Shown: positions 559 through 51,025, numbered from the stretch's first letter. The stretch is DNA of 64,000 nt from Tubiluchus corallicola (GCA_030141605.1 JAQGDQ010000017.1:1054001-1118000), one strand, 5' to 3'. Notes: generated by a model from the sequence alone, not told the origin. Translations and numbers: made by a program.

Positions 559-2283
559 ATGGCATTTAGATTTCAGCAAATCTTGACCGCCTGCAGCTGC
601 TTTGCACCTGAATGGCAAACGAGAACAGCGAAACCTTTGGCAATAGCGCTCTTTCAAAAAAGATTGTTACACCATAATCAAACCACACACGAAAAAGACA
701 AAAAGTACAAATGGAGAAATGGGACAATAGCAATTGGAGCTTTAGGAATAACGGCAGGCATTACAGCTTATTACTCATTTAAAAGATCTGGACAAGCTTG
801 GGCCAATTACTGGAACAAGCAGTTAGAACTACCGACTGCTGTAGAGGCAGCGGGTGCTATTAAAATGGGGCTTCCCACTTACACCATGGCTCAAGTGCAG
901 AAACACGACACTGTAGAAAACAGGATGTGGGTGACATACCGAAATGGCGTGTATGACGTCACGGATTTCCTGCCACTGCATCCTGGAGCAGATAAAATTA
1001 ACATGGCCGCTGGCGGCCCTATAGAACCCTTCTGGGCAGTGTATGCCATCCATGAGTGCAATGAAGACATACAAGAAATGCTAGAGAAATATCGCATTGG
1101 AAACCTAGAAGCTAAAGATGTGTTAAGTAAAAGCGATTATAACAGTAATCCATTTAACAGCGAGCCGGAACGACACAAGATGCTAATTCCGTGCAGTGTG
1201 AAACCGTATAATGCAGAGACGCCACTGCATGTACTCGGAGATAATTTTATCACTCCAAATGAATTATTTTTCATTCGCAATCACATGCCAGTGCCCGATA
1301 TTGACATCAACAACTATGAACTGGAGGTGTCTGGTTCTGGCATCAGTATAAATCACAAGACACTGACACTCGAAGACATCAAGAAATTTCCAAAACATTC
1401 AGTCATCGGAGTTCTTCAGTGCGGCGGAAACCGAATGGCGGAGATGACTGCTATGAAAGCAACAAAAAGAGTTGACTGGAGCGGTGGTGCCATTGGTAAT
1501 GCAAAGTGGAGTGGTGCACGACTCTACGATGTCCTAAAGGCAACTGGATTGGAAGACGATGATACGAATGCGGTGCACGTTCATTTTGAGGGTATGGATA
1601 TCGATCCTGGAGGTTTTCCTTATGCAGCATCAATTCCCATTGAAAAAGCTATGGATCCACGTGGAGATGTACTGCTAGCATACGAGATGAATGACAAACC
1701 ATTGTCAAGGGATAACGGATTTCCTCTGCGTGTTTACATTCCTGGTGTTGCTGGCGCTCGGAATGTAAAATGGCTGTCACGGATTGTTGTGTCTATTGAA
1801 GAGAGTGATGCACATTGGCAACAAACAGATTACAAATGTTTTAGTCCCTCAGTTGACTGGGATACGGCAGATTTCTCTAAAATGGCTCCACTGCAATCGA
1901 TGCCCGTTACATCCTTAATCTGTGAACCAACTTCCGGAGATGTTGTAAAGTTAGACAATGGAGAAATTGAACTCTCTGGTTATGCTTGGTCTGGAAATGG
2001 GCAGAAAATAATCCGTGTGGATTTGACGGCTGATGGTGGAAAGACTTGGTGTGAAGCCAAGTTGGTATCACAAGATACTGCAAAGCCTCCCAGGCACTGG
2101 GCATGGACTTTGTGGACTGGCAGAGTGAAGGTGCCTAGAGGACAGAGGGAAGTTGAACTCTGGTGCAAAGCGGTTGACTCTTCGCACAATACTCAACCAG
2201 AAAGTGTCCAAAACATTTGGAACCTTAGAGGTCTAGTTTGCAACTCGTACCATCGCGTTGCTGTAAAGATAGAGCACAATTGA
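559..2283 (+). CDS. SUOX: Mitochondrial sulfite oxidase (transit/TM segment, cytochrome b5, Moco-binding and dimerisation domains); intronless CDS
   Basis: 574-aa ORF with b5 motifs (GVYDVTDF..HPG, PFW..Y..H), FFIRNH, QCGGNR (Mo-ligating Cys), GAIGNAKWSGARL, GARNVKWL, WQQTDYK, GYAWSG and IWNLRG. Acceptor ttttccag at 545-552 lies 6 nt before the ATG. Confidence 0.95.
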   Translation: MAFRFQQILTACSCFAPEWQTRTAKPLAIALFQKRLLHHNQTTHEKDKKYKWRNGTIAIGALGITAGITAYYSFKRSGQAWANYWNKQLELPTAVEAAGAIKMGLPTYTMAQVQKHDTVENRMWVTYRNGVYDVTDFLPLHPGADKINMAAGGPIEPFWAVYAIHECNEDIQEMLEKYRIGNLEAKDVLSKSDYNSNPFNSEPERHKMLIPCSVKPYNAETPLHVLGDNFITPNELFFIRNHMPVPDIDINNYELEVSGSGISINHKTLTLEDIKKFPKHSVIGVLQCGGNRMAEMTAMKATKRVDWSGGAIGNAKWSGARLYDVLKATGLEDDDTNAVHVHFEGMDIDPGGFPYAASIPIEKAMDPRGDVLLAYEMNDKPLSRDNGFPLRVYIPGVAGARNVKWLSRIVVSIEESDAHWQQTDYKCFSPSVDWDTADFSKMAPLQSMPVTSLICEPTSGDVVKLDNGEIELSGYAWSGNGQKIIRVDLTADGGKTWCEAKLVSQDTAKPPRHWAWTLWTGRVKVPRGQREVELWCKAVDSSHNTQPESVQNIWNLRGLVCNSYHRVAVKIEHN

Positions 2284-7518: not shown

Positions 7519-9033
7519 CTAATAATTTACCTGTGTATTGTGTTTCCTTTTCTTATGTGAGCTCAGACCACTGCGGTCATAGAACTGTTTCTCACACATA
7601 TTACAGTGATAAGGACGTTCTCCGGTGTGCGTTCTTATGTGAGTTTTTAAAATGTCTGATCGGGAAAACCTCTTCGGACACACCTCACACTCATAAGGTT
7701 TATGTCCAGTGTGCTGTCGTACATGAACTTCCAATAAACACCTTTTAAGAAAGGTCTTACCACACCATTGGCAGAAAAACATTGGTTTTGACTCAGGTTG
7801 TTCAACAACCGGATTTTTCCTTTGTTTCATAGTAGCGTCAATTCCATGGGTCTTAGTACGTCCATGAGCGTTAGTACTTGGTCCTTGTGCATGAATCACT
7901 TTTTTATGATAATTTAGCCCGCTACGGTCAGAATACTGTCTGTTACAAATGTCACATTTATAAGGCTTTATGCCGGTGTGAGTTCTTGCGTGCATCCTCA
8001 AACCATCTTCACGGGAAAACGTCTTGTGACATACTGCACACTCGTATGGCTTGTGTCCAGTATGTATTCGTTCGTGAGCAAGACATTTTGTTCTCTGTCT
8101 AAATGCTCTCTGGCAAAAGCGACAACAATGTGGTTTCTTTGGTTCTTTGCGAATCTCACTTTGTGCTGGAATGCTGTCATTCGCCGTGGATCTAGCACTT
8201 TCTGTCAGTTGCCCACGGATGCTACCAGTTCTATGTACATATTTTTTGTGGTAATTAAGACCGCTATGGTCATAGAACTGTTTGTAACAGACTTTACAAT
8301 GATACGGACGTTCCCCAGTGTGCATTCTTATGTGGATCTTGAGACCGTCCAGTCTTGCAAAGCTCTTCTCACAGACCTGACACTTGTAAGGTCTGTCACC
8401 AGTATGAATCCGTTCATGCTCCACGAGTTTTGTTCTCTGTTTGATTACCTTGTTGCACCATCGACAGGAGCGTCCACTACTGTTTCCAACGCTAACCAAT
8501 TTATGACTTTCCAAAGAAAACACCTGTTCGGCGTCATTCCGTTCCTCCATTTTATTCGATGCAGCTGAAGGTACTTCACTTACAACAGTACTATCACAGT
8601 GGAAATTGACATTGTCCTTAAACAATTCCCCATTATCATTTTCAATGTTGTCACTATTATTCAATGAATCACTACTATATGCCAATGCTATGTTTGGCTT
8701 AATATCTTGAAGATCACTGCAGTCATCATCAGTTTTGTCTTTGGTGACGTCACATGTTTCAGCATCACCTGCGAAGCTAATACTTTCAGCACAAGGTATA
8801 ACAGCATTATTAGAAATATGACTTTGTGTTGAATGTAGAGCATAATTGCTATTTTCAGAGCTGTCGTTTTCCGCATCTGCGAAATTATCTAGAAGATCAC
8901 CATCATAATTGTGTCCTTCGTTGATTAACAATTTGCAATGATTGGTTCTTGTGTGCACATAGAAACTTTCTTCGGACAGGAGGCAATTTGAGCAGGCCGT
9001 ACATTTATAATAAACAGCCGGTCCCAATTCCAT
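7519..9033 (-). CDS. C2H2 zinc-finger protein: one N-terminal finger plus three clusters of three fingers; intronless CDS
   Basis: 504-aa ORF with repeated CxxC...HxxxH fingers and HTG(E/D/H/I)(R/K)PY linkers, plus an acidic N-terminal region. Candidate acceptor (ttttcttttattag on -) at 9227-9240. Confidence 0.92.
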   Translation of the reverse strand: MELGPAVYYKCTACSNCLLSEESFYVHTRTNHCKLLINEGHNYDGDLLDNFADAENDSSENSNYALHSTQSHISNNAVIPCAESISFAGDAETCDVTKDKTDDDCSDLQDIKPNIALAYSSDSLNNSDNIENDNGELFKDNVNFHCDSTVVSEVPSAASNKMEERNDAEQVFSLESHKLVSVGNSSGRSCRWCNKVIKQRTKLVEHERIHTGDRPYKCQVCEKSFARLDGLKIHIRMHTGERPYHCKVCYKQFYDHSGLNYHKKYVHRTGSIRGQLTESARSTANDSIPAQSEIRKEPKKPHCCRFCQRAFRQRTKCLAHERIHTGHKPYECAVCHKTFSREDGLRMHARTHTGIKPYKCDICNRQYSDRSGLNYHKKVIHAQGPSTNAHGRTKTHGIDATMKQRKNPVVEQPESKPMFFCQWCGKTFLKRCLLEVHVRQHTGHKPYECEVCPKRFSRSDILKTHIRTHTGERPYHCNMCEKQFYDRSGLSSHKKRKHNTQVNY

Positions 9034-9744: not shown

Positions 9745-10224
9745 ACAATTTGGATTTAGAAAAAATATTCAACTGTCAATGTAATAATAAACGTAACTGA
9801 AAACTGGCAGGATAATCTCGATAAAAACAAATATGTGGCAGCAGCTTTTTTAGATTTAAGTAAAACTTATGACAGTTTATATCATAAACTACTGTTAGAA
9901 AATTTGAAAGAACTTGGATTTGAACAATCAGCATTAAAATTAATTAATGTTTGCCTACAAAATAGAAAGCAGCAGGTTAAAATAAATTCTACAACATTTT
10001 CAGATTGGGCTAATCTTCAGCGAGGTAACCCACAGGGTATGCTATTGGGACCTCTACTGTTTAACCATTACATCAGTAATATTTCTAAACATTCTACAAA
10101 TTCAAATATTATGCAATATGCAGATGGCACGACTGTTTATCTGGCTCACGAGAATATCAGCATTGCAAAACAGTACTTAGAAAAAGACATAAAGAAGATC
10201 AACATGGCATTTCATTATTATTAG
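9745..10224 (+). mobile_element. Degenerate non-LTR retrotransposon (CR1/L2-like) reverse transcriptase fragment
   Basis: QFGFRK at about 9747, FLDLSKTYD, NRKQQV, GNPQGMLLGPLLF and YADGT (degenerate YADD); truncated and frameshifted. Confidence 0.88.
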
Positions 10225-19193: not shown

Positions 19194-20083
19194 CAGGGCC
19201 GTCTTAACAGCATGGGCCGCCAGACAAAGCAGTGCCATCGGGGCCCCCACCAACACTCAAGGGAATAAAAATGTAAATGGTTGATAAAGTTAAGCATATA
19301 TTTATTGTACTAGTACTTCCAACAAAATCAATGTTTAAACATAAAGAAACATGCTGTACGGCAAAGATTAATCAACACAAACGTTTGAACAACATAACAT
19401 GAGCCTCTAAAAACACAAAAATGCTTGCATTACGTTACGTAGTACGTAAGACACCGGTTCTCGTCTAATCACCGAAGTTAAGCAACGCAAAGCCTGGTTA
19501 GTACTTTGAAGGGTGACCGCCTAGGAATACCAGGTGCTGTAGGCTCGACACTAGGCGGAGGAGCTGCACAAGCAGCCAACGGCTAGAGGGCGGAGGAGGT
19601 CAAGTGACCCAACGGCCATGTGTAGACGAGTAAACCTTCCAAATCAGGAGTGAAGCCCCGAAGGCGTACCAGTGCAGCATGCTCACTGACTCCGGAGCTC
19701 CTGCAGCCAACCTGGTGCCATACGTATCGCTCCGCTTTCCTTAGAGAGGAAGAGAGGGGGTTCCTGTTGTCTGGGCAACTCAGGATCTCCAGGGCTTCGA
19801 GGATCGGACTGCTCAGCCACAGTCGACGCTGCAGTATAGTACATGGCATAGTATAGTACAGTATAGTATAGTATAGTATAGTATAGTATAGTATAGTATA
19901 GTATAGTATAGTATAGTATAGTATAGTATAGTATAGTACAGTATAGTATAGTATAGTATAGTATAGTATAGTATAGTACAGTATAGTATACTACAGTATT
20001 GACTGCATGTCACAACATATATAGAGTACCGTGTGGTCCCTATGCTTCTGGAGCCTCCGGGCAACTGCCCAACGTGCCCTGCA
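19194..20083. mobile_element. MITE copy 2 (same family as 6688-7231), interrupted by a SINE
   Basis: Begins cagggccgtcttaacagcat; shared internal sequence to about 19420; resumes after the SINE with ggtccc...gggcaactgcccaacgtgccc. Confidence 0.65.
19451..19990 (+). mobile_element. 5S rRNA-headed SINE with RTE-LINE-derived body/tail and (TATAG)n end
   Basis: 19451-19545 is a 5'-truncated, mutated 5S rRNA sequence; a GC-rich body follows; 19797-19832 translates SRIGLLSHSRRC (RTE ORF C-terminal motif); (TATAG)n runs from about 19833 to 19990. Confidence 0.8.
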
Positions 20084-22110: not shown

Positions 22111-22172
22111 TACTAAATACCGTTTTACAGTATGTCTGCTTTATAATACTTTATTGCGATTATTAGGAGTCA

Positions 22173-23609
22173 ATGATGGACGCAAACATCATAATCATTG
22201 GTGCTGGACCCACTGGTTTAGGGGCTGCTCTTCAACTTCAAGATCTTGGTCACTCCAACTGGACACTTTTTGAAAGCACTGATGGTCCAGGCGGACTTGC
22301 ACGTTCCATCAGGGATGACAATGGCTTCTTCTGGGATATGGGTGGCCACGTGATCTTCTCACATTATCAGTATTTCAATGACGTGCTGGATTGTTTTGTA
22401 CCCGATTGGTTGTACCATAAGAGAGAGAGTTACGTCTGGGTCAGAGAGAGATTTGTGCCCTATCCGTTTCAGAAAAACATTCACTATCTTCCTGAAAAGG
22501 ATATGACTGCTTGCTTAGAAGGTCTAAAGGCAACAGCACAGCACAGAAACGAAGTTGAAAATCATAAACCAATTGTGACATTTCAAGACTGGATTGATAA
22601 GAATTTCGGACGAGGTTTGGCAAAAATATTCTTTAACCCGTACAACTTCAAGGTTTGGGGATACAAGCCCTGTGTAATGACGTCAAACTGGGTAAGCGAC
22701 AGGGTAGCGAAAGTTGACCTGAAATCTATCATTAATAGCATTAATAGTAAGAAAGATGATGTTACGTGGGGACCCAATTCGTCATTTCGCTTTCCGTTAT
22801 TTGGAGGGACAGGAGTAATATGGCAAAATGTTTGTGATAGTCTTCCAAATGATAACGTCAAGCTTTGTGAAAAAATTTCAAGGATTAATGTCGATACCAA
22901 ACATGTAAGCTTGGATTCCGGTGAATGTGTTCCCTACGATTATCTTATCAACACCACACCACTAGATATTTTTATACAAAATCTTAAAAGCGACAGGGCA
23001 GCTGGGCTCAAGGACTTCTTGCAGCAAGAGAATGACTTCGTGCATTCATCTAGCCATATTATTGGCTTGGGTTTGGAAGGCCAGCCAAGAGAACATTTGT
23101 CGGGGAAATGTTGGCTGTATTTCCCCGAAGAAAACTGTGATTTTTACAGAGTGACAGTATTTTCCAATTACTCGCCGTACAATGTACCACAACCGGGGAA
23201 ACAATGGTCCTTAATGCTTGAAATCACTGAAACTCCAGCCAAACCGGTCGCCGAAGACATTGTTCAAGCAGCAATACAGGGCGCCAAAAATGTTGGCCTG
23301 CTCTGTGAAAGTGACAGGATAATCAGTAAATGGCACACACGGTTAGAATATGGATACCCCACACCTTTTCTGGGAAGAGACAAACTTCTGAACGAAGTGC
23401 AACCAGTTTTGAAAAACATGGGGATTTATTCCAGAGGGCGCTTTGGCGGCTGGAAGTATGAAGTTGGCAACCAAGACCACAGTTTGATGCAGGGCGTAGA
23501 AGCCGTAAATAACATTATCCTGGGAAAGAAAGAACAGACATACTTTTTTCCTCACGATGTTAATCATATGTACAATCCCACAAGTCGGATAAAAAGTGTT
23601 GGAAATTAA
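22173..23609 (+). CDS. glf: Eukaryotic-type UDP-galactopyranose mutase (FAD-dependent); intronless CDS
   Basis: 478-aa ORF with GAGPTGLGAA (FAD binding), WDMGGHVIFSHYQYF (His loop), VPYPFQ, PYNFKVW, DRVA, WGPN..FRFP..GGTG, CWLYFPE, FYRVTVFSNYS, GYPTP and SRGRFG.W.YEVGNQDHS.MQGVEA. Acceptor AG at 22165-22166. Confidence 0.93.
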   Translation: MMDANIIIIGAGPTGLGAALQLQDLGHSNWTLFESTDGPGGLARSIRDDNGFFWDMGGHVIFSHYQYFNDVLDCFVPDWLYHKRESYVWVRERFVPYPFQKNIHYLPEKDMTACLEGLKATAQHRNEVENHKPIVTFQDWIDKNFGRGLAKIFFNPYNFKVWGYKPCVMTSNWVSDRVAKVDLKSIINSINSKKDDVTWGPNSSFRFPLFGGTGVIWQNVCDSLPNDNVKLCEKISRINVDTKHVSLDSGECVPYDYLINTTPLDIFIQNLKSDRAAGLKDFLQQENDFVHSSSHIIGLGLEGQPREHLSGKCWLYFPEENCDFYRVTVFSNYSPYNVPQPGKQWSLMLEITETPAKPVAEDIVQAAIQGAKNVGLLCESDRIISKWHTRLEYGYPTPFLGRDKLLNEVQPVLKNMGIYSRGRFGGWKYEVGNQDHSLMQGVEAVNNIILGKKEQTYFFPHDVNHMYNPTSRIKSVGN

Positions 23610-23986
23610 TAACTACATAGCTTCTTATAAACCATGGTAACGGTACTAGTCATTCGTTTGGATTGAGGTTGGATGTTGCACCTTCAACGGGTGAAAAAAT
23701 AATCATCGTAAAGGCAGGTGACTTGACCCACCTCCAACCATTTGTTCTTGAAAAAAGCGAAGGTGGCAGCACCTTCCAATGAGATATTAGCAAAGTTAGG
23801 CAATGACACATCGGCAGCTGTTACAACCATTATTATTAACACAACTGACAATTATTGCTCGCTTGTGCCGAGTTGTCTAAAATCTAATGAATAATAACTA
23901 AAATAAAACGAAATTACGGTAGCAATATTGTCTTTTGTAGCATTGCTTTATCGTTCTATATACATGTACTAGAACTCGCAATTCAC

Positions 23987-24290
23987 AATAAGCCTTTTTA
24001 TGGTTCCGGCGATTGATAATGGTCCGTGAAAAGGTCAAAGGTTAAGTGTACCAGATAACGCATTCTGTACACTTGACAACGTATCGGTACAGCAGTTTAA
24101 CAGCTAGCTAGAACATTACCTAACATTTCTCTTGTTCTCAAGCAAGATCATGCTAATAAATCACTCCACGCACAGACTAATACATAATTAAATGAAGTTC
24201 ACGTAAAACAACTAAACATACTGAACAGATGCTCTGCTTTACGCACACGTCACGTGACGGTTGTAATTAAGACGCGTTGCAGTTGGTGCA
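23987..24290 (+). repeat. Dispersed repeat family B, copy 1
   Basis: cgtgaaaaggtcaaaggttaagtgtaccaga...cttgacaacg...caagcaagatc...gcacagactaat also occurs at 59106-59420. Confidence 0.85.
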
Positions 24291-24758
24291 CGTAACCTTT
24301 GACAAACAACAACTACGCATGCGCACAACGAAACTGCGAAAAGGCTTATTATTAACAATGACCGGTAATTGAGGGCATGATAAAGTCATGTTAGAACATT
24401 TACAATATCCACAACGGCAGAACGTGACAAAACATTTGATTTATTTACTACCCCGAGTCCAAGAAACACATGAACATGAAATAAACTGCAGCCTCAGCCT
24501 GTTCTTTTTTCGTAGACTTAGTGATGTTGACTATAATAATTTGAAAAATAGAAGATGTACATTGACGAAATGGTACTTTACTGTGTCTAGGTAGGGAGTC
24601 ATACGAGTTTGCACATAAGTTAGTTGTGAGAAAGATACCCTACTGTCCTACAGTATGTTCTAATCTTTTAACAAAGCAAAACCTTTTTCAGTTAACGTAA
24701 CAGAAATACTAATTTTTTGGCGATGTAAATATTTGCGTCCCAAGGTCTTTTATTTGCA

Positions 24759-26100
24759 GACCGATGGCGTCATTAATGGCCGAAGCGAAACCGGCGCTTA
24801 AGAAAACGGAAAACCAGTATTTTCCTATTATCACTGATACTAACAATGACTTTAATTTCAAGCAGGATATATTTTTTGGAAAGTAATCTTTTGGCTATAA
24901 ATGCAATTAACGCCGTTAAAATGCGCAATTTTTTGCTACTTTTCCATTGTCTTTCATCAGAAGCATTGTTTTTTAATACGCTCAATAAATTTATTATTAC
25001 CCGTCGCTAATAACGACAGGCTGTTAATGGGTTACATGTGTTTTGGGGACAGGGACATTCGACAGTCTATTTCGACACAAACATTTTGGCGCATGGGTCA
25101 TTTGGACACTAGGGGTTTTGGGCACATAGGTCATTTGTATGCATACGACATTTGGACACACAGAACATTTAGACACAAGATAATTCGGGCACATAGGACA
25201 TTTGGGCACAAGGCAAATTGCACACATAAGACATTTGAACACAAGGTAATTTTGACACATAGGCGATATGGACATATGGTGATTTGAACAAATAGGTTAT
25301 TAAATATAGACACGTGAGCTGTTTGACACTAGGCTTATTATTTGACACACAAGACGTTTGAACACTAGACGTTTTTATATAAACTTTATCTGTTTTAAGT
25401 GAATAGACCTACAGTAATTTTACTGATCGGACTTTTTCCACTGTTGTAAACTAGGTGTTTTTCACACGGGACACTTAGAAATGTAGATAATTTGGAGTCA
25501 TTTAACTGTTTAAATACCAAACGTACCATTCGGATTTGATCGGGAGATCGTATAACAACTTATGCCAGCAGCCAAATGAATTATGACTCACTTCTTGTTA
25601 GCAAGAGGTCACATAACAACAGTCAGTAACAACACTTTTTAATTTAAGCCCGCACGATATGACGATGGCTGCATCTTTTCACAATTGTTTAGTATGTAAT
25701 GAGTAAGAATTACAATGCGTCAGTGCAGAAATTGCCTTGTGTCCAAATTTCCTATGTCCAAATAGCCAATGTGTTGTCAAAAATACCTTGTTTCCAAGTA
25801 ACCCATGCGTCCAGGTGTCTTCTGTCCAAATGACTCATGTTCCAAATTGCATAGTGTTTAAATTAACTACGCGTCGAAATAGCCGTGTATATGGCCTATG
25901 TGTGTCCAAATAGCCTATGTGTCCAAGGCACCTTGTGTCCAAATGACTTATGTATGCAAAGTACCTTGTGTCCAAATGTTTTGTGACCAAATGTCCTGTG
26001 TCCATATGTCTATGTCGAAATGTCATAGCATTATGACTATGTTAATGGCATTAACGCCTGTTACTATTAGCGATGGACCATTAATGGCCATTGATGTCCT
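24759..26100. mobile_element. Foldback-like element with long inverted arms built of degenerate tandem units
   Basis: Left arm 25029-25370 has ttt(g)gacac/gggcac units, right arm 25733-26025 has gtgtccaaat units. Outer inverted matches: 25003-25029 vs 26049-26074 and 24759-24781 vs 26075-26098. Confidence 0.65.
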
Positions 26101-27199
26101 GTCATCGTCATTTATTGCTGCTATTGTTTGTCTAGTGTTATTCAAAATATCTATTAATGTAACTTCAAGCTCTCACAGTTTTCTTAGAACGCCAACACAA
26201 TCATTTTTACTACAACAAAACAACTTAGAATGTTCTAAAAACTTATGAAGAACGAAGCCATTCTCAATTGCAGATCATGGCCCCCATGTAGGAGCTATCG
26301 CTATGATTGCATGCGCTGTTAAGGATCGCCTGCCCCATCCTGTGTAGAGAAACAATCGAATTAAAGCCGCAAAACATTATGCTTACATTAGTCAAAGAGA
26401 ATTCTGATCACAACGCACGTAGCGCCATCTATGGAGGTACGTATCTATAAATTTTGTAGATGTTTTTATATTTCGCACCTCATTTGCCATTACAACGACT
26501 TTTTTTCAGTCTGAAGGCTGTCTTGATGTTGCCGCCTCTTTTATACTTCGTTGCTATCAGCAGTTAATAACATTTCTTTGAAAATGCTTTAAAGTGATAT
26601 ATTAGAGGCTTTTTAACTTGACGAGTTCTGAACGTAACTGAATCAGAAACTAATGTTCTAGAAGAATGCAAGCCTCCTTTTAAAACTGTAGGGCGCCGTG
26701 TTTAGTGCGTTTAAATATAACCTAAAAATGAAATTATTGCACAAAAAGTATTGCAAACGAAAATTACAATAATTTTACCTCCTGGGGCCCTACCAAATGA
26801 TCAACTTCATACTCTTTGAACAAGTTTGTGTGTAGATTATATAATGTTCACTCAGAAATATCACAACTCTAGCTTTATAATTTTTGTCTAGCCTAAAAAA
26901 GTGCTATACTTTTTAGAGCACTGACAGTACTATGAGTACAGGGATGTACATTACATTACGTTACTATGGTCAAAATGAACGCGCTTAAACGTGAATGATT
27001 ATAACTTTAATTTAAGACTTTACAATTGCACAAGATGTTTATGCACTTTTGTTGCTTAATCATTCTAACATTTGTCTCGAATATTAAAAGAAGTTCAACT
27101 TTTCTTAGCGAATCTTACCTTTCTTTCAATTTAGGTTGATATAAACCATTAATAATGTTCTCCAATTGCTCAAGTAATTTTTTCTTAACATTCTGTCAG

Positions 27200-28984
27200 T
27201 TACCAGGTGCACGAGCAGGCGGTTCAGTCACTAACAGGCTTAATCCAGGAAGAAACACCATTTGCAGGCCTAATCCAGGTAATCCAATCATTAACAGGCC
27301 TAATCCATGCGGCCCACTAATTAGCAGACCTAATCCTTATGGAACGACATCGCCTACTCCAGGTGGCTTGGTAGTGCACCGACAAACACCAGTACCTAAC
27401 CATATGCTCCTAGCTGCCATCTCCTGTTGTTTGTGTTTCCGCCTTACTGGATTGGTAGCAATTTACTACGCAGCAAAGGTAAGCCCTGGTTAAAACTGTT
27501 GAGAGTACAGGTGTTAGATTTCTTACTTAGAGTTACTAATCTTACTTAGATTCGTAGATCTAATCGTCACTAATCGTAGATTCGACCACTACGAAGGGTA
27601 AACTTTATAAACCTTTTCTTCCTGGGCTTAACAAAACTCTAATGCAAAACACTTTCTTTGTCAGGACTATATCGCTTTGGAATTCTTTTCCTTCTCATGT
27701 TGTCATGGTTTCCTCTTTAACTTCCTTCAAAACCACTCTAAAAATTGTAATTTTAATAATCATCTTAAAATTTTTTCGCTATTTTAGAGAATGCTCTTCG
27801 CATAATGGTCTCTAGAATTCCAAAGTGCACACCATTGTAAATATTTATTTTACAATAGTCACTAACAATTTATATGGTTTATCTGCATGGTTGATTTATA
27901 AAATTTCGCCAAAGTGTGTTTTTCTGTTTATTGGTCGCAATTTTTTAAAGTTTTAGATGATCTAAGCTTTTAATGTACTAACCTGTGAGGTTCTTTAAAT
28001 CGTTGTCGTAAAGGTGAAAGTCGTTGTGATTTTTTTGTGTATCACATTTTTTGTGCCTTGATGGCGTTGTTGCTTCATGATTTTTAACTTTTTACTATTT
28101 ATTTGTGATGTATTACTTTGCTAAAAAAGCAAATAAAATAAGATTCAATTCAATACACTGCTGCATTACTATTCACCAGTGTACTTCAGCTGGAGTTTTT
28201 GCTTAATTTTTTGGGTTCCTTCTTTGGAAAGAGGTCTGTTTTGCCATGATATTATTCCCATAGTCGTTCTAGTTGCTCATATACAGTAATAAGTTTTATC
28301 AGTTTTTAATATTATGACGTTACAACTAATAGAATTATTCTATAGTCATGACAAAGCTAAATAGTGTTTAAAACTGACTCCTAAAAAACGGATCAGGACA
28401 ACAGTAACTAAATGGTGCTGTAAAAGACGTATCCAGCAGCTGGACAATAAAAATTCAGTAAGTGAGAACCCATAATAAGAACCCATTAATAAGGTTTCGT
28501 ATTCTGCACTAGTTAAACCTGCGGCTTATAATGTTCTAAAGACGGCAGTGATTTTATCCAAGTTCTAAAATGAGCAACTCTTGAACAACTGCCTTTTGAT
28601 CCTGTAATCAGGCAAGTAGTTAACTGTGGATTGTCAGAAACTATGCGGGTCATTTGCTCTATATTTAGTAATTATTCTCAAATGTTATAAAAAACATAAT
28701 AATTACTATGGCAACTACTCTGTAATAATACGCCAGACATATCATATAAGCTCCTAGTAATAGTCTAACAAAAGAAACTTAATGTTATTTTTTTCAAGGT
28801 TGATGAACACAATGCAACAGGAAACGCCTATGAAGCTTGGCTAGCCTCCAAAAAAGTGAAAATTTATTTTGTTATTTCCGTGGCGATAACCGCAATAAAA
28901 TATCTGGTGATCGCCATCTTGTTTTTAACATTTATGAGCAAAGAAGAAGACAAAAATGCAATTACCGTTTTATCCAATTATTAG
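27200..28984 (+). CDS. CD225/dispanin (IFITM/PRRT-like) membrane protein; exons about 27200-27478 and 28799-28984; 5' end uncertain
   Basis: Exon 1 encodes PVPNHMLLAAISCCLCFRLTGLVAIYYAAK and ends at a phase-0 donor AAG|gt. Acceptor ttttttcaag precedes VDEHNATGNAYEAWLASKKVK, a TM segment and a stop. The start may be ATG 27155 or ATG GAG|gtacgt at 26431. Confidence 0.85.
27585..27745 (+). mobile_element. 3' fragment of a CR1/L2-like LINE in the dispanin intron
   Basis: Conceptual translation KLYKP...FFVRTISLWNSFPSHVV..SSLTSFKTTLK matches the typical WNxLP tail of CR1-group ORF2. Confidence 0.6.
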
Positions 28985-32907: not shown

Positions 32908-33171
32908 ATGGCTTCTTCAGCCGCTGTCAAAAAATATGGCCCAGGTCTTAGAGGATTGTTCAAAAAAGGCTGGAACGAGTTACCAGAGGTAGTCATATCT
33001 TTCGTCGGCTTTCTGGTTTTTGCTGCCGTTGCTATAGGTCACACCGAGTATAAATATAGATATGGTGATGGCCACACTCAACCGTACAGAATCAAGTACA
33101 CAGTGTACAGGCCTGGAGATCCAAGATGGGAAAAAGTTCTAAATCCAAGAAAGAGTTCCGATGATTTTTAG
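32908..33171 (+). CDS. NDUFA3: NADH dehydrogenase (complex I) subunit NDUFA3/B9-like, 87 aa; intronless CDS
   Basis: LFKKGWNELPEVV, a single TM helix, then Y...Y.VYRPGDPR; resembles the insect NDUFA3 (Drosophila CG9034) pattern as I recall it. Strong acceptor ttttttttcag at 32883; candidate upstream donor atg|gtaagc at about 31314. Confidence 0.75.
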   Translation: MASSAAVKKYGPGLRGLFKKGWNELPEVVISFVGFLVFAAVAIGHTEYKYRYGDGHTQPYRIKYTVYRPGDPRWEKVLNPRKSSDDF

Positions 33172-39134: not shown

Positions 39135-39470
39135 ATGGTACTTCTAGAAAATGATGCATTCCTATCTGAGGTGACAAAACTATTCCAGAAATCAAAGAAC
39201 ACGGGTTCAGGTTCACTGTGCATCACGATGAAGCGATACGACGGCAGGAAAAAGCCGAAGCCACGAAGTGGGTCTGCTCAAAAAGGCCCGATGCCGGCTG
39301 CGGATTACAAGTGCCTGATGAGGGCTGCGCTTGGTTCAAAGAAGATCAGTACGGTAATCAATGCCAAAGATGTTAATAAGTTTCAGATGGCTTATGCCAA
39401 CCTACTGAGAGCCAATATGGATGCACTGAAGAAAAGGGAAAAGAAATCGAAGAAAGCAAAGACGACCTAA
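39135..39470 (+). CDS. SRP14: Signal recognition particle 14 kDa protein, 111 aa; intronless CDS
   Basis: MVLLENDAFLSEVTKLFQKS...ITMKRYDGR.KP.PR...CLMRA..GSKKISTV...KDVNKFQMAYANLLRANMD.LKKR with a basic C-terminus. Confidence 0.96.
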   Translation: MVLLENDAFLSEVTKLFQKSKNTGSGSLCITMKRYDGRKKPKPRSGSAQKGPMPAADYKCLMRAALGSKKISTVINAKDVNKFQMAYANLLRANMDALKKREKKSKKAKTT

Positions 39471-45660: not shown

Positions 45661-46900
45661 TTAAGCTTCTAAGATGACAGCATACAGTGATATGTACAAA
45701 CTTTAGGAAAATTCAGCACAACTTTATACCAAACAAAATATCATTGTGGACACAAAGGATTTCGAGACCTGTTTTCAGTTTTTTTGGCCACAAGCACTTT
45801 GGTTTCATATATTAAAATGTTAAATAATAAAAATTTGGTTGATGCAAGGTACCGAAATGGCTAAAAACTCAGAGATGGAATTCTCGTGCGCACAGGTGAT
45901 CAGCATCCCTGTAGCAACAAAACTGCAGCAAATCCCCGCAGCACGTATAATAGGATTGCTCAGATTAGTTTGATTAATTAGCGTCAGTCAGGAAGCTGAG
46001 GCCCGCTCAGCGCTGCGGAAGCGAAACGTGATTTCTTAGAAAGCTCGTTATGCAGCCAAAATGAAAGCAAATAATTACAGCAGTGGCATAAACCTGTCTT
46101 GCTCACAGTCATTATGGCAGCATAAATTAATTTGGGAGCTTACTGGCACATGCTTAGTTTCGCAACCCTCCTAATTGTCTTATTTTCTCTTTCGGCGATA
46201 ACATCCCACCACTAATGCAAATTACTCAGCAAATAATGAAGCCATAAATTAGTTTAATGGATTACTGTTGCAACGAGTACTAATACCCATTAGTTTTATA
46301 AAGCTGGTGCAACTTTTGCTACAAAAAATTGCTTAACTCATATAAAATAAACAAGCTAAATAATGGCAAACTCATTACAATACACAAGCATCTGCTGTTT
46401 AACAGGGCCAATTCACATTAAAACAATCAAGTAAAGATATGGACTACTAACAAACTGTTAACTTTCAAATTTTTCACTACCAAGTGACATCTCTCTACAC
46501 TCGGTGCACTGTTCTGTTTGCATGTTACAGTTGCAAAGAGAGTCATTAACTGTGAAAATTATAAAGACCTAAATAAAAAATAAGTACAGTGATTGCTAGT
46601 AATTGCCTCATGAATAGCTAGTTCATTAATAAGCTTAGGGACCAATTAAGATAATCAGTTTACAATTAAAATTGAATAGCAAAAAAAATCAGAGACTAGT
46701 TTCATGAAGAGACAAATGAAAAATCAGTTTAGGTAGCTGATACAGTTGCTCATCTGACTCACCAACAATGATACATACACCGTATACAAAACTGAATTTA
46801 AATACCTAGTGTATTTGTTGATGTACTTATCTGACATACTAACGATGAAACATACACCGTATACAAAACTGAATTCAAATGGTGCTAGAAACACTTTAAT

Positions 46901-47142
46901 CTATCCACCAAATGAAGCCAGGGCTGAACAGTGAGTATCCAGAATTCCCGAAACCCCTTTGGCACCTCTTATTATCACTGAGTCACAGGCATTGTTTAAC
47001 TGAACGACAACAAATGGATCATTAAAAAACGGCTTTTTAGCAATCACGCAACCGCTAGGCAGGTCTGAACAATGAGCATCCAGATGTCTAATCCCTTTTC
47101 TTACCATTGCATCACAGGCATTGTTTAACTGAACAATGACAT
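46901..47142 (-). CDS. Candidate coding exon with an in-frame internal duplication; unknown product
   Basis: Two units of VQLNNACD...KG...LD(A/T)HCS.L; the duplicated blocks are 129 and 141 nt apart (both multiples of 3); weak acceptor at 47143-47144. Confidence 0.3.
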
Positions 47143-48433: not shown

Positions 48434-51025
48434 CAACTAGTAATTCTTTAACTGTCACAAAATAAGTAATCAAAGTTAATGAAGTCTTTTTACGTCTGCA
48501 ATACATTAAATAAATTTATTTAATGCACTTTAGTAAAGTCATGCTTACAATGAGATCACAGCAAGCCTTTTGGACTACACAGTATTTATAAGAAAATGAA
48601 TTATGAGTGACTAAGACTATATTTTGACAATTTTGATAACCTTACAAATGTGATAAACTAAACTGAGATTGAACAAACATGTAAAATTAACGACCGTCAA
48701 AATCAAAGCAGCAACACTGTTCTTATAGGTCTATCACTTTTTTAGTCTCAGGTTGTTTATGAATTTAAAAAGAATATACACTAAATAGATTAAAACCAGT
48801 TTACAACAAACGTGACGCACAGAAAAATTTCGGTTACTTGTACTGCAGACATGAAAATACAGAGCAACACAGATGAAATTACTATGAAGTACATCACATG
48901 TACATAATAAACTTAACCGGCAATGGTTAGATAAGCCTATTAATACTCGCAGCTGCCGTAAGATATTCAGTCATAACGTAACAAATAATCACAGAATGGC
49001 TGAATTCCTCAATTGTACCTTTAGCAGAAAATGTCACATACTTATTACTGCTAGTGCTATGATTAAAGTTCTCTCTATGCTTGGATGCTAATTTACCACA
49101 TCAGGTAAACCTATTGTTACCATAGAAACACGTACGCTCGTCTCAATCCCTGTTGCCACAGTAACCGATGCCGCACTGATTTCGAATGGTGCTAGCTATT
49201 CAAATGACATCTACGCACCAAAGGAAATCAGGACAGCAAAGATGTACAATTTGTCAGCGCTGAAATTAAAGGAATTAGCAGATGATTTCACGCTGACTAA
49301 AAGATGCTCTGCAGTAGCTAATAAATATTGGAACTAATCTTGTGCTGTGTAAAGAAGACTTAATGTTACTTGTTAGTAATAATTACTACCAAAAAAAAGT
49401 AAAAGTAGTATTACTTAGCTAGGTTGTGGAAATTACAATAAATACGATCGCTAATCAGCAATAGAGCTACCAGGCTATATAGTTAATAAACAAAAAATGC
49501 AAATTCTAAAATAGAAACCCTGCTGCAACTGCAAGTAAAGCTGAAGTAAAAGTAAAAAAAGGAAATTAAAAGCATACAACTTAAAAAGCATACAAAAAAA
49601 ACTAATTCACTAAATGCCTAACTTTTGGTTGGTGTCATTTATGCACATTAGCCATAATAAAATTTGTCCTAAACACATTGCACTAAATCAGCAAATAATA
49701 GAAATAAGTTAAAATGTGTTCACAGGCTACAAAACTCAGTCTTCTGCTGGTGCAGAACACAACATGGCTGCCAGGCATGTGCTGCCACCTCATGCACAAG
49801 ACAGCAAAAAAAATTAAAAACAACAGTGACAGTGTTCACCAAACCATTGTACAAAAATAATAAAGACAACTTATGAATAAAATGACTTTTGAAACACAAA
49901 TTTCTATACAAGGTAGGTAAACTAATATATGTCTTAGACTTGTATTTAATAATTAATTCCAATGAAATAAAATTGCATTTCAAAGGAATAAGTTACTAAC
50001 TACGCAAGATGATATTAAATAAGAAATGCAATTATCTTTTGCAGGAAATATCAAGTAGAACCTTAATATTACTAAGATTGGTACCTCAACCATAACAGCA
50101 GCGAGGGCATTCGACCTATTCCCAGGTCTCTCACAAAAAAGACATTTAAGAATATCAAGACAAGGTCATTGATTAAAAACTCTAAGTCTGTCCTCTACTT
50201 TTCCATTCAACATGCAAAAAATATGCTCATAGCAGTAAGACTTCTCAAGAAAACTCCTTTCTTAGGGAATTAGTTTTTAACCTTTCGGAAAAACTTATAA
50301 TCAGTACATTGAACATAATCATTGAATCTTAAGACAGACAGCTACAGCAAATAGATTACTAATTCTTATTAACTTTAGAAAAGCAATAGAAGCTGCACAT
50401 GCCACATGGTGAGTATGCTAAACATTGTGCTACCAGGGAGAGTTTCAAGCCAATTTGACAGATTTTTTCAAATTGGGCACTGCGATAATTCTGCAATATC
50501 ATAATAGCAAGAGCATGAATTAAATAAGCTATTATCATTTACCCTCAACAATTTAAGCCTCTATTTGAAGTAAAAATAACCTACATTAACTGAATAAGGC
50601 ATTAATATGCTGAAATAACATTCCTTAAACTGTTTTTATAGAACTTAATAAAATAAGAAATTTATATTGTTACATTTTGCTTGTACAGAACTTTTACTGC
50701 CAGTTGATATAATTTCAGCAAAGCAGATGACAAATAAAACCACAATACGTAACTTTGTTAAAATGCATCTGAATATAGTTTTCCTAGGTCTATTTAGTAG
50801 CAGAAAGTTTTGCTTCCAGACACAAACGTATGGAATACAGACTGTAGATTACATGATTAATTTATGTTTGAAACATCAGTACCATGGCACCAACACCTGA
50901 ATAATTTGAAAATAAGGCAATGATTACACGTTTCTAACGCTGACCAAATTAAAATAATCTACAACAACCACTGTACCCTAAGTTGCTAGCCTTACATTTT
51001 CACCTTGCGAGTTCTTTCACAAGCA

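What the first reader, a model, noticed from the sequence alone, without database searches (positions are those of the whole stretch)
22173..23609. Intact protist/fungal-type UDP-galactopyranose mutase in an apparent arthropod: candidate galactofuranose pathway
Seen: a full-length ORF with all motifs carrying the catalytic and substrate residues of eukaryotic UGMs (GGH loop, YPFQ, KVW, RVA, WGPN, WLYFP, FYR, GYPTP, GRFG, YEVGNQDHS). Established: UGM makes UDP-galactofuranose, the donor for Galf glycans of bacteria, fungi, trypanosomatids and nematodes (C. elegans glf-1, surface coat); it is absent from mammals and not known from Drosophila. As I recall them, GGHVIFSHYQYF and the C-terminal motifs match trypanosomatid/fungal enzymes better than nematode GLF-1. 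Inference: horizontal acquisition or patchy ancient retention, implying unrecognised Galf glycans (cuticle, gut, secretions) or use of dietary fungal Galf in this animal. No UDP-Galf transporter or Galf transferase is visible in the window.
Basis: partly seen in the sequence, partly recalled or inferred. Interest (0 to 1): 0.9.

Follow-up and report, generated by a model that had tools for sequence, protein, structure and literature searches.

The report
Priapulid-type galactofuranose mutase in an arthropod
This animal, likely a non-insect arthropod, carries an intact gene predicted to make the sugar donor UDP-galactofuranose, usually linked to microbes and roundworms; its closest relative is an unnamed gene of the marine worm Priapulus, so it is likely an old animal gene lost in most arthropods rather than a recent transfer from a fungus.

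Summary
The ORF is real: 478 aa, intact, 19 of 20 published active-site residues kept, predicted fold TM 0.93 to T. cruzi UDP-galactopyranose mutase (UGM). Runs from three studies hold it; in two, contig depth matches the flanking host DNA, so contamination is unlikely. Its best hit is not fungal or trypanosomal but an uncharacterised Priapulus caudatus protein (60% identity, next 54%), its sister in 6 of 6 trees. Grouping with prokaryotes (AU p 0.004), fungi (0.03) or a nematode-type stand-in (0.02) is rejected; grouping with kinetoplastids (0.08 alone, 0.23 with Priapulus) or sponges (0.10) is not. Long-form UGMs also turned up in a sponge, bdelloid rotifers and a sea cucumber, and not as one clade. 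Best reading: an old ecdysozoan gene, separate from nematode GLF-1, likely feeding surface-glycan galactofuranosylation. Host class, expression, activity, transporter and transferase are untested. This scan reported long-form UGMs before only in bacteria. None of my paper searches found a priapulid or arthropod long-form UGM.

The parts
22173..23609 (+). Single-exon CDS, long-form (eukaryote-type) UDP-galactopyranose mutase, 478 aa
22200..22217 (+). GAGPTG, FAD-binding Rossmann motif (aa 10-15)
   Evidence: Pfam NAD_binding_8 on aa 8-74
22341..22349 (+). GGH histidine loop (His59 = AfUGM His63)
22701..22703 (+). Arg177 (= AfUGM Arg182, mobile loop I)
22767..22778 (+). WGPN mobile loop II (Asn202 = AfUGM Asn207, the eukaryote-type residue; Phe in bacterial UGMs)
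23112..23150 (+). WLYFP...FYR (Trp314, Tyr316, Arg326 = AfUGM Trp315, Tyr317, Arg327; R327A is inactive in AfUGM)
23352..23480 (+). GYPTP and GRFG-GWK-YEVGNQDH (Tyr395, Arg423, Tyr429, Asn433, Gln434, His436)
22120..22130 (+). Candidate splice acceptor (pyrimidine run + CAG) 42 bases before the ATG; inferred 5'-UTR intron or trans-splice site, as seen before three neighbouring host genes; not confirmed by RNA
23902..23907 (+). First AATAAA downstream, candidate polyadenylation signal
24034..24303 (.). High-copy host repeat with 20-bp terminal inverted repeats (MITE-like), about 420 bases after the stop; marks the flank as host DNA
   Evidence: inverted repeat I18; summed depth hundreds of times that of the gene

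Best explanation
The ORF is an intact gene in the animal's own DNA that encodes a long-form UDP-galactopyranose mutase, predicted to turn UDP-galactopyranose into UDP-galactofuranose in the cytosol, and it likely descends, together with its Priapulus sister gene, from a gene of an early ecdysozoan that most arthropods lost. Mechanism (established for the A. fumigatus enzyme; inferred here from conserved residues and fold): reduced FAD attacks C1 of galactose through N5; Arg177 and Arg326 position the diphosphate and the sugar; the His59 loop and the WGPN loop close on the substrate; the ring reopens and closes as the furanose. Downstream steps are inferred from other eukaryotes: a nucleotide-sugar transporter would carry UDP-Galf into the Golgi and an unidentified transferase would add Galf to secreted or cuticle-surface glycans, as GLF-1 does for the nematode surface coat. 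This gene is not the orthologue of nematode GLF-1. Odds by step: UGM family 0.97; host-integrated 0.95; active enzyme 0.85; common descent with the Priapulus gene inside animals 0.6; used to build Galf glycans 0.7.
For: Family: 19 of 20 residues of the AfUGM active-site table are identical; the exception is M159 to Phe154, also Phe in the nematode-type row and Leu in Priapulus. 12 of 12 further residues are identical. AlphaFold model pLDDT 89.5; TM 0.93 and rmsd 1.9 A to 4dsg, against TM 0.74 or less for protoporphyrinogen oxidases. Host integration: in run X2 the gene's contigs have depth 148-165, against 145-192 for the six other listed pieces, including those over the CD225 and NDUFA3-like genes. 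In X3, a second study, it is 7-16 against 5-16. Contigs run 129 bases past the stop (X1, X2) and start 53 bases before the ATG. A run of a third study holds diverged pieces, 157 of 163 and 273 of 296 letters alike. GC3 is 0.43 against 0.36-0.53 for four host genes; the codon-usage correlation with host genes (0.60) equals that between two host genes (0.58). Of 13 listed variants in the CDS 7 are silent and 6 change a residue, none at the 32 mapped sites. Ancestry: Priapulus scores 673 bits and 60% identity; the next hit 592 bits, and no other listed hit exceeds 54%. The two are sisters in 6 of 6 trees (99, 99, 95, 96, 99/96, 92). They share 12 rare residues, against 7 or fewer for any of the other 511 rows. 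AU tests reject pair+prokaryotes (p 0.004), window+fungal clade (p 0.03) and pair+nematode-type rows (p 0.02). They do not reject pair+sponges (p 0.10) or an opisthokont-like grouping with sponges and fungi (p 0.50). The single exon is no sign of transfer here: four ordinary host genes in the window also have uninterrupted ORFs.
Against: Vertical descent needs many losses: among the named entries in the best 120 hits of each of two searches no arthropod appears, though most entries carry no name. Deep branches are weak: 88/92 for the clade with sponges, 92/75 above it, and the sponge grouping is not recovered. Window+kinetoplastids (p 0.08) and pair+kinetoplastids (p 0.23) are not rejected. 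All animal long-form UGMs as one clade is strongly rejected (p 2e-61), so animals did acquire this enzyme more than once. The window-Priapulus distance (1.14 changes per site) is shorter than the distance from the host's sulfite oxidase to its nearest arthropod row (1.6), which a later transfer would also give. The nematode stand-in P0367 is unnamed: it is typed only by an Atlas lead and lies on a long branch. The Priapulus gene lies on a 27.7-kb contig whose context I could not read. No UDP-Galf transporter or transferase was seen among 96 window ORFs scanned. The tool warns that contig depth is not copy number, and no listed contig bridges the gene to another host gene.
Confidence: 0.55

Rival explanations
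1. Same enzyme, but horizontally acquired: two separate transfers from one unsampled protist lineage (gut symbiont, parasite or food) into the host and into Priapulus, or one transfer followed by animal-to-animal transfer.
For: The pair's nearest rows include unnamed, probably eukaryotic sequences (P0257 and P0003 groups). Kinetoplastid groupings are not rejected. The rotifer copies nest among non-animal-looking rows with 100/99 support, and all-animal monophyly is rejected, so repeated acquisition is shown for this family. No other named arthropod carries it in the lists.
Against: No donor closer than 54% was listed among the best hits from 5.8 billion proteins, 80 GTDB loci or 80 metagenome loci. 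The two animals are each other's nearest relatives in every tree. Prokaryote and fungal donors are rejected. Codon usage is host-like.
Confidence: 0.27
2. The host is not an arthropod but another ecdysozoan (a scalidophoran or similar), so the gene is simply the orthologue of the Priapulus gene in a related phylum.
For: The sulfite oxidase is on a long branch (0.95), only 58% identical to its closest row, and attaches outside the sampled groups in a tree with no outgroup. One of two mir-29-family mature sequences occurs in Trichinella papers (listing only).
Against: Every named entry among the best 120 sulfite oxidase hits is an insect or crustacean, and no priapulid, mollusc or vertebrate is listed. 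The NDUFA3-like ORF matches the Drosophila complex I subunit (E 5e-8) and no mammalian chain. The other mir-29 sequence matches mosquito miR-285 over the 19 bases searched.
Confidence: 0.1
3. The enzyme works in the degradative direction or on another sugar: it converts salvaged dietary Galf nucleotide back to UDP-Galp, or acts on UDP-arabinose or UDP-GalNAc, and the animal makes no Galf glycans.
For: No transporter or transferase was seen nearby. The equilibrium favours the pyranose (recalled, about 11:1).
Against: The sugar-contact residues equal those of AfUGM (Asn202, Asn433, Trp314, Arg177, Arg326). Salvage would need a route from free Galf to UDP-Galf, and none is known to me in animals. 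Pathway genes of animals are rarely clustered, so absence from 64 kb says little.
Confidence: 0.12
4. Contaminant or chimeric assembly: the ORF belongs to a protist or fungus co-sequenced with the animal.
For: No listed contig spans from the gene to another host gene; the genome was not available; X1, X2 and X4 are one sample that may be the assembly's source.
Against: Depth matches host pieces in two studies; the alleles differ by point changes between samples; contigs run into both flanks; a host MITE-like repeat follows 420 bases after the stop; GC and codon usage are host-like.
Confidence: 0.03

Closest known systems
Priapulus caudatus LOC106818898 (XP_014679054.1), annotated 'uncharacterized protein'
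   Same: 478 aa, 60% identity, sister in all six trees, 19 of 20 active-site residues, same single deviation site (AfUGM M159)
   Different: Another phylum; never characterised; its exon structure and genomic context were not checked
Trypanosoma cruzi UGM (PDB 4dsg/4dsh) and Aspergillus fumigatus UGM (3uka, 3ute)
   Same: Long-form fold (TM 0.93 and 0.90-0.92), catalytic and substrate residues, no signal peptide
   Different: 49% identity to T. cruzi, 43% to A. oryzae; lacks the fungal insertion near aa 340; separate clade; animal host
Nematode GLF-1 (C. elegans glf-1, Brugia bmugm)
   Same: Animal long-form UGM; surface-coat or cuticle role is the model for function (PMC11304992 and PMC5244609, passages read)
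   Different: Only 36% identical to the nematode-type stand-in P0367, which groups with the sea-cucumber clade side of the tree; common clade rejected at p 0.02
Ciona, Mytilus and Notodromas UGMs (PMC13390645, passages and supplement search)
   Same: UGM genes in non-nematode animals; the Ciona genes are single-exon
   Different: Those are bacterial-type (IPR004379) and called recent bacterial transfers; this protein scores 22.6 bits against the TIGR00031 cut-off of 303.75, so such a domain survey would miss it
Long-form UGMs of Ephydatia muelleri, Rotaria spp. and Apostichopus japonicus (database entries, unannotated)
   Same: 20 of 20 active-site residues; animal records, the sponge and sea-cucumber ones on 10-Mb and 20-Mb scaffolds
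   Different: Sponge copies lie near this gene with weak support; rotifer and sea-cucumber copies lie in other clades

Membership tests
Long-form (eukaryote-type) UDP-galactopyranose mutase, EC 5.4.99.9 | N-terminal GxGxxG FAD-binding motif and GGH histidine loop | tested here: met
   GAGPTG at 10, GGH at 57
Long-form (eukaryote-type) UDP-galactopyranose mutase, EC 5.4.99.9 | Active-site residues of AfUGM (Table 2 of PMC3322874), including Arg182, Arg327, Asn207, Trp315, four tyrosines, Asn457, Gln458 | tested here: met
   19 of 20 identical, mapped through A. oryzae UGM, which has the AfUGM residue at all 20 numbers
Long-form (eukaryote-type) UDP-galactopyranose mutase, EC 5.4.99.9 | Three-domain UGM fold, about 470-510 aa | tested here: met
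   Model pLDDT 89.5; TM 0.93 to 4dsg
Long-form (eukaryote-type) UDP-galactopyranose mutase, EC 5.4.99.9 | Cytosolic location (no signal peptide or membrane span) | tested here: inconclusive
   Highest 19-residue hydropathy 1.35, at the first Rossmann strand, as in T. cruzi UGM (1.31); no dedicated predictor was run
Long-form (eukaryote-type) UDP-galactopyranose mutase, EC 5.4.99.9 | UDP-Galp/UDP-Galf interconversion with reduced FAD | not testable with these tools
   Needs an assay
Bacterial-type UGM (Glf, TIGR00031) | Score above the curated cut-off; about 370-380 aa; Phe at the AfUGM Asn207 position | tested here: not met
   22.6 bits against 303.75; Asn202
Orthologue of nematode GLF-1 | One clade with nematode UGMs | tested here: not met
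   AU p 0.02, with unnamed stand-ins P0367 (nearest Atlas cluster is Nematoda) and P0394 (untyped); long branches, so moderate strength
Protoporphyrinogen oxidase (label on many hits) | TIGR00562 cut-off and fold match | tested here: not met
   21.1 bits against 97.85; TM 0.74 or less and 14-16% identity
Complete eukaryotic Galf pathway | UDP-Galf transporter and galactofuranosyltransferase in the genome | not testable with these tools
   No genome held; none among 96 window ORFs scanned with Pfam (5; 91, most of them from the 326 candidates)
Recent horizontal transfer from prokaryotes or fungi | Nesting inside a donor clade and foreign composition | tested here: not met
   AU p 0.004 (prokaryotes) and 0.03 (fungal clade); host-like GC3 and codon usage

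The most novel reading that the evidence does not exclude
A long-form UGM was present in the last common ancestor of ecdysozoans, perhaps of all animals (sponge copies), and survives in priapulids and at least one arthropod lineage. Nematodes use a different, separately acquired copy. Galactofuranose would then be an ancient, overlooked component of animal cuticle or surface glycans, made with transferases still unidentified in any animal, and this arthropod would be the first shown to make it.
Probability: 0.35. Interest if true: 0.75.

Novelty: new member of a known kind. Interest (0 to 1): 0.55.

Why it matters
Galactofuranose is treated as a microbial and nematode sugar. UGM is an antiparasitic and antifungal target, and Galf a fungal diagnostic antigen, on that basis (PMC5244609 passages; PMC5583699 abstract start). 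A review calls nematode Galf a horizontal acquisition (PMC11304992 passage). An intact UGM shared by a priapulid and a likely arthropod, plus unannotated copies in a sponge, rotifers and a sea cucumber, suggests the pathway is scattered across invertebrates and hidden by labels such as 'amine oxidase' or 'protoporphyrinogen oxidase'. It gives a direct test (glycan analysis, knock-down) of whether Galf belongs to an old ecdysozoan cuticle chemistry, and a phylogenetic profile for finding the animal Galf transferase. The enzyme itself is well known; the news is where it occurs.

Tried and rejected
No whole genome is held, so paralogues, transporter and transferase could not be sought; tblastn finds no second copy in the window. 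Expression: no RNA holder listed; the one guessed RNA run, X6, covered only repeats of the stretch laid and not the NDUFA3-like gene either, so it says nothing. Single-sequence scans of genome and viral contigs found nothing; alignment scans found 586 prokaryotic stretches (80 kept, 44-52% identity) and 3 viral loci (35-50%), none near the gene in the 513-row tree. Atlas neighbours of the protein are bacterial clusters, which the tool says is no sign of transfer. No named nematode GLF-1 was returned by any search, so an unnamed stand-in was used. The host class could not be fixed: the sulfite oxidase hit list holds no named chelicerate, myriapod or non-arthropod to root the tree. 'Single exon means transfer' was rejected because neighbouring host genes share the trait. 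Papers: of 10 searches, UGM+Priapulus, galactofuranos+priapul (96), CeUGM (59) and Galf+UGM+arthropods+absent+animals (98) gave 0 papers; searches listed none whose title or abstract start concerns an arthropod or priapulid long-form UGM; one search concerned the microRNAs. The myriapod HGT supplement (5 files searched, one of them cut when stored, one further file unreadable) and the sea-spider genome text hold no mention of a mutase. Two key reviews (PMC3946560, PMC1151986) were not held; most subscription journals and bioRxiv supplements are not searched, so 'not in print' is limited to these searches. Trees left rows out: rows covering under 330 profile positions were dropped, and the 105- and 51-row sets were hand-picked from the 513. 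No complex prediction was run.

Full report
Observation. The window holds an uninterrupted ORF at 22173-23609 (+) of 478 aa. Against PDB sequences the 14 best matches are T. cruzi and A. fumigatus UDP-galactopyranose mutases (E 2e-156 to 1e-129), and the next protein is at E 1.5e-5. Pfam reports only generic flavoprotein families, and the bacterial UGM model TIGR00031 gives 22.6 bits against a cut-off of 303.75. This explains why relatives are labelled amine oxidase or protoporphyrinogen oxidase.

Enzyme. I took the 20-residue active-site table of A. fumigatus UGM from PMC3322874 (passages read) and mapped it through A. oryzae UGM, which has the same residue at all 20 numbers. The window protein keeps 19 of 20; Met159 is Phe here, Leu in Priapulus and Phe in the nematode-type row. 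It keeps 12 of 12 further residues, 11 of them named in the passages read and His460 recalled. The AlphaFold model (pLDDT 89.5) matches 4dsg at TM 0.93 and rmsd 1.9 A, and protoporphyrinogen oxidases at TM 0.74 or less. Activity is inferred, not shown.

Is it host DNA? No genome is held. Four runs hold the stretch, three of them with half its words or more, from two studies. In X2 the gene's contigs have depth 148.5 and 164.6, and the six other listed pieces 145-192, among them the pieces over a CD225 exon (152.5) and the NDUFA3-like gene (178.8). In X3, from another study, the figures are 7-16 and 5-16. The tool cautions that such depths are not copy numbers, and X1, X2 and X4 are one sample that may be the assembly's source. 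Contigs extend 129 bases past the stop and begin 53 bases before the ATG, but none listed reaches another gene. X5, a third study with next to none of the sampled words, still laid two pieces inside the CDS with 6 of 163 and 23 of 296 letters different, which suggests a diverged relative with the same gene. The 13 listed CDS variants are 7 silent and 6 replacement, none at a mapped site, and no indel in the CDS is listed; both tables were cut. GC3 (0.43) and codon usage (r 0.60 with two host genes, against 0.58 between those two) are host-like. A high-copy element with terminal inverted repeats follows at 24034-24303. A pyrimidine-CAG acceptor lies 42 bases before the ATG, as before the sulfite oxidase, NDUFA3-like and SRP14 ORFs. 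Those three and a C2H2 zinc-finger gene are all single-exon ORFs, so the lack of introns is a host trait here.

Host. The sulfite oxidase (559-2283) has only insects and crustaceans among its named best hits, at 47-59% identity over the list. In a 31-row tree it lies on a long branch outside insects plus malacostracans (96/94) and weakly outside copepods (85/64), with no outgroup. The ORF at 32908-33171 matches a Drosophila complex I subunit (chain A3). Two mir-29-family hairpins lie at 46863-46927 and 49170-49237. One mature sequence matches mosquito miR-285 over the 19 bases searched; the other occurs in two Trichinella papers (listing only). The host is thus an ecdysozoan, likely an arthropod outside insects and malacostracans; its class is open.

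Relatives. Of 7977 proteins scored as hits among 7999 candidates, the best is Priapulus caudatus XP_014679054.1 (60%, 673 bits); the next scores 592 bits and none listed exceeds 54%. Look-ups of 30 proteins named, among others, long-form UGMs in the sponge Ephydatia muelleri, the sea cucumber Apostichopus japonicus, Ceratiomyxa, Leptomonas and aspergilli. A profile search added Rotaria sordida, R. magnacalcarata and two trypanosomes. The family is also common in prokaryotes: 586 confirmed stretches, 80 kept, at 44-52% identity, as earlier notes of this scan said.

Trees. Window and Priapulus are sisters in six trees: FastTree on 269 and 513 rows (99, 99), IQ-TREE C20 on 105 rows (95), on 51 rows quick and careful (96; 99/96), and LG+G on another alignment (92). 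They share 12 residues that occur in under 5% of rows, against at most 7 for any other row. In the careful tree they sit with sponges and unnamed rows (88/92), next to fungi plus kinetoplastids (92/75); these deep branches are weak, and one search leaves them open. Eight AU tests on the 51-row set gave: pair+prokaryotes p 0.004; pair+nematode-type rows p 0.02; window+fungal clade p 0.03 and window+kinetoplastids p 0.08; pair+kinetoplastids p 0.23; pair+sponges p 0.10; pair+sponges+unnamed neighbours+fungal clade p 0.50; all animal rows together p 2e-61. The groups were chosen after seeing the first trees and no correction for multiple tests was made, so the 0.02 and 0.03 results are moderate. 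The nematode stand-in P0367 is unnamed; its nearest Atlas cluster is Nematoda, a lead only.

Reading. The data exclude a recent bacterial origin, disfavour a fungal one, and tie the gene to a priapulid gene. The simplest account is one gene in an early ecdysozoan, inherited from earlier animals or acquired once from a protist, kept in Priapulus and this lineage and lost in most arthropods, while nematodes, rotifers and sea cucumbers carry copies of other origin (0.55 with the functional steps included). Parallel or serial transfer remains the main rival (0.27): the family has demonstrably entered animals more than once, and no other named arthropod copy was listed. The functional model, UDP-Galf supply for cuticle or secreted glycans, rests on analogy with nematode GLF-1 (PMC11304992 and PMC5244609, passages). 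No transporter or transferase was seen in 96 window ORFs, and expression is untested.

Literature. PMC13390645 (passages and supplement search) reports bacterial-type UGMs in Ciona and notes the IPR004379 domain in only six animals, among them Mytilus and the ostracod Notodromas; its supplement does not mention Priapulus. Searches for UGM or galactofuranose with Priapulus and for Galf, UGM and arthropods gave no paper. Two older reviews were not held and may list further animals. PMC8092308 and PMC8724618 (passages) add nothing on arthropods.

Verdict. This is a new member of a known enzyme family in a lineage where my searches found no report of it, and it points to a wider, unannotated spread of the galactofuranose pathway in invertebrates. 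Interest 0.55; 0.75 if the ancient-ecdysozoan reading and Galf glycans are shown.

Noticed in passing
window 559-2283 (+), 7519-9033 (-), 32908-33171 (+), 39135-39470 (+): Sulfite oxidase, a C2H2 zinc-finger gene, an NDUFA3-like gene and SRP14 all have uninterrupted ORFs; three have an AG acceptor 3-23 bases before the ATG. The genome looks intron-poor in coding regions despite many repeats; 5'-UTR introns or trans-splicing are both possible.
   Followed up: partly
window 49170-49237 (-) and 46863-46927 (-): Two mir-29-family hairpins 2.3 kb apart on one strand; one mature form is miR-285-like, the other matches a form listed in Trichinella papers.
   Followed up: partly
window 19423-19545 (+): Isolated 5S rRNA match, 62.8 bits, 2.6 kb upstream of the UGM; gene or pseudogene.
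   Followed up: no
window 27155-27478 and 28798-28981 (+): Two-exon CD225/dispanin-like gene with a proline-rich repeat N-terminus; GT donor and AG acceptor visible.
   Followed up: partly
window 25001-26076: About 1.1-kb element with long inverted arms made of 15-33-bp subrepeats (foldback-like), low to moderate copy depth.
   Followed up: no
window 9760-10221 (+): Reverse-transcriptase fragment (PF00078, E 1e-14), probably a decayed LINE.
   Followed up: no
proteins P0409/P0408, P0479, P0428, P0441: Unannotated long-form UGMs in Ephydatia muelleri, Apostichopus japonicus and two Rotaria species, in three different clades; the three aligned keep 20 of 20 active-site residues.
   Followed up: partly
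proteins P0274, P0316, P0258, P0268, P0043, P0256: Fused forms: several UGMs of 730-975 aa share a C-terminal domain ending in an HYxER-like motif (not identified); P0043 is fused to a GT2 glycosyltransferase (Pfam labels); P0256 holds two UGM domains. The fused partners are leads to Galf transferases.
   Followed up: no
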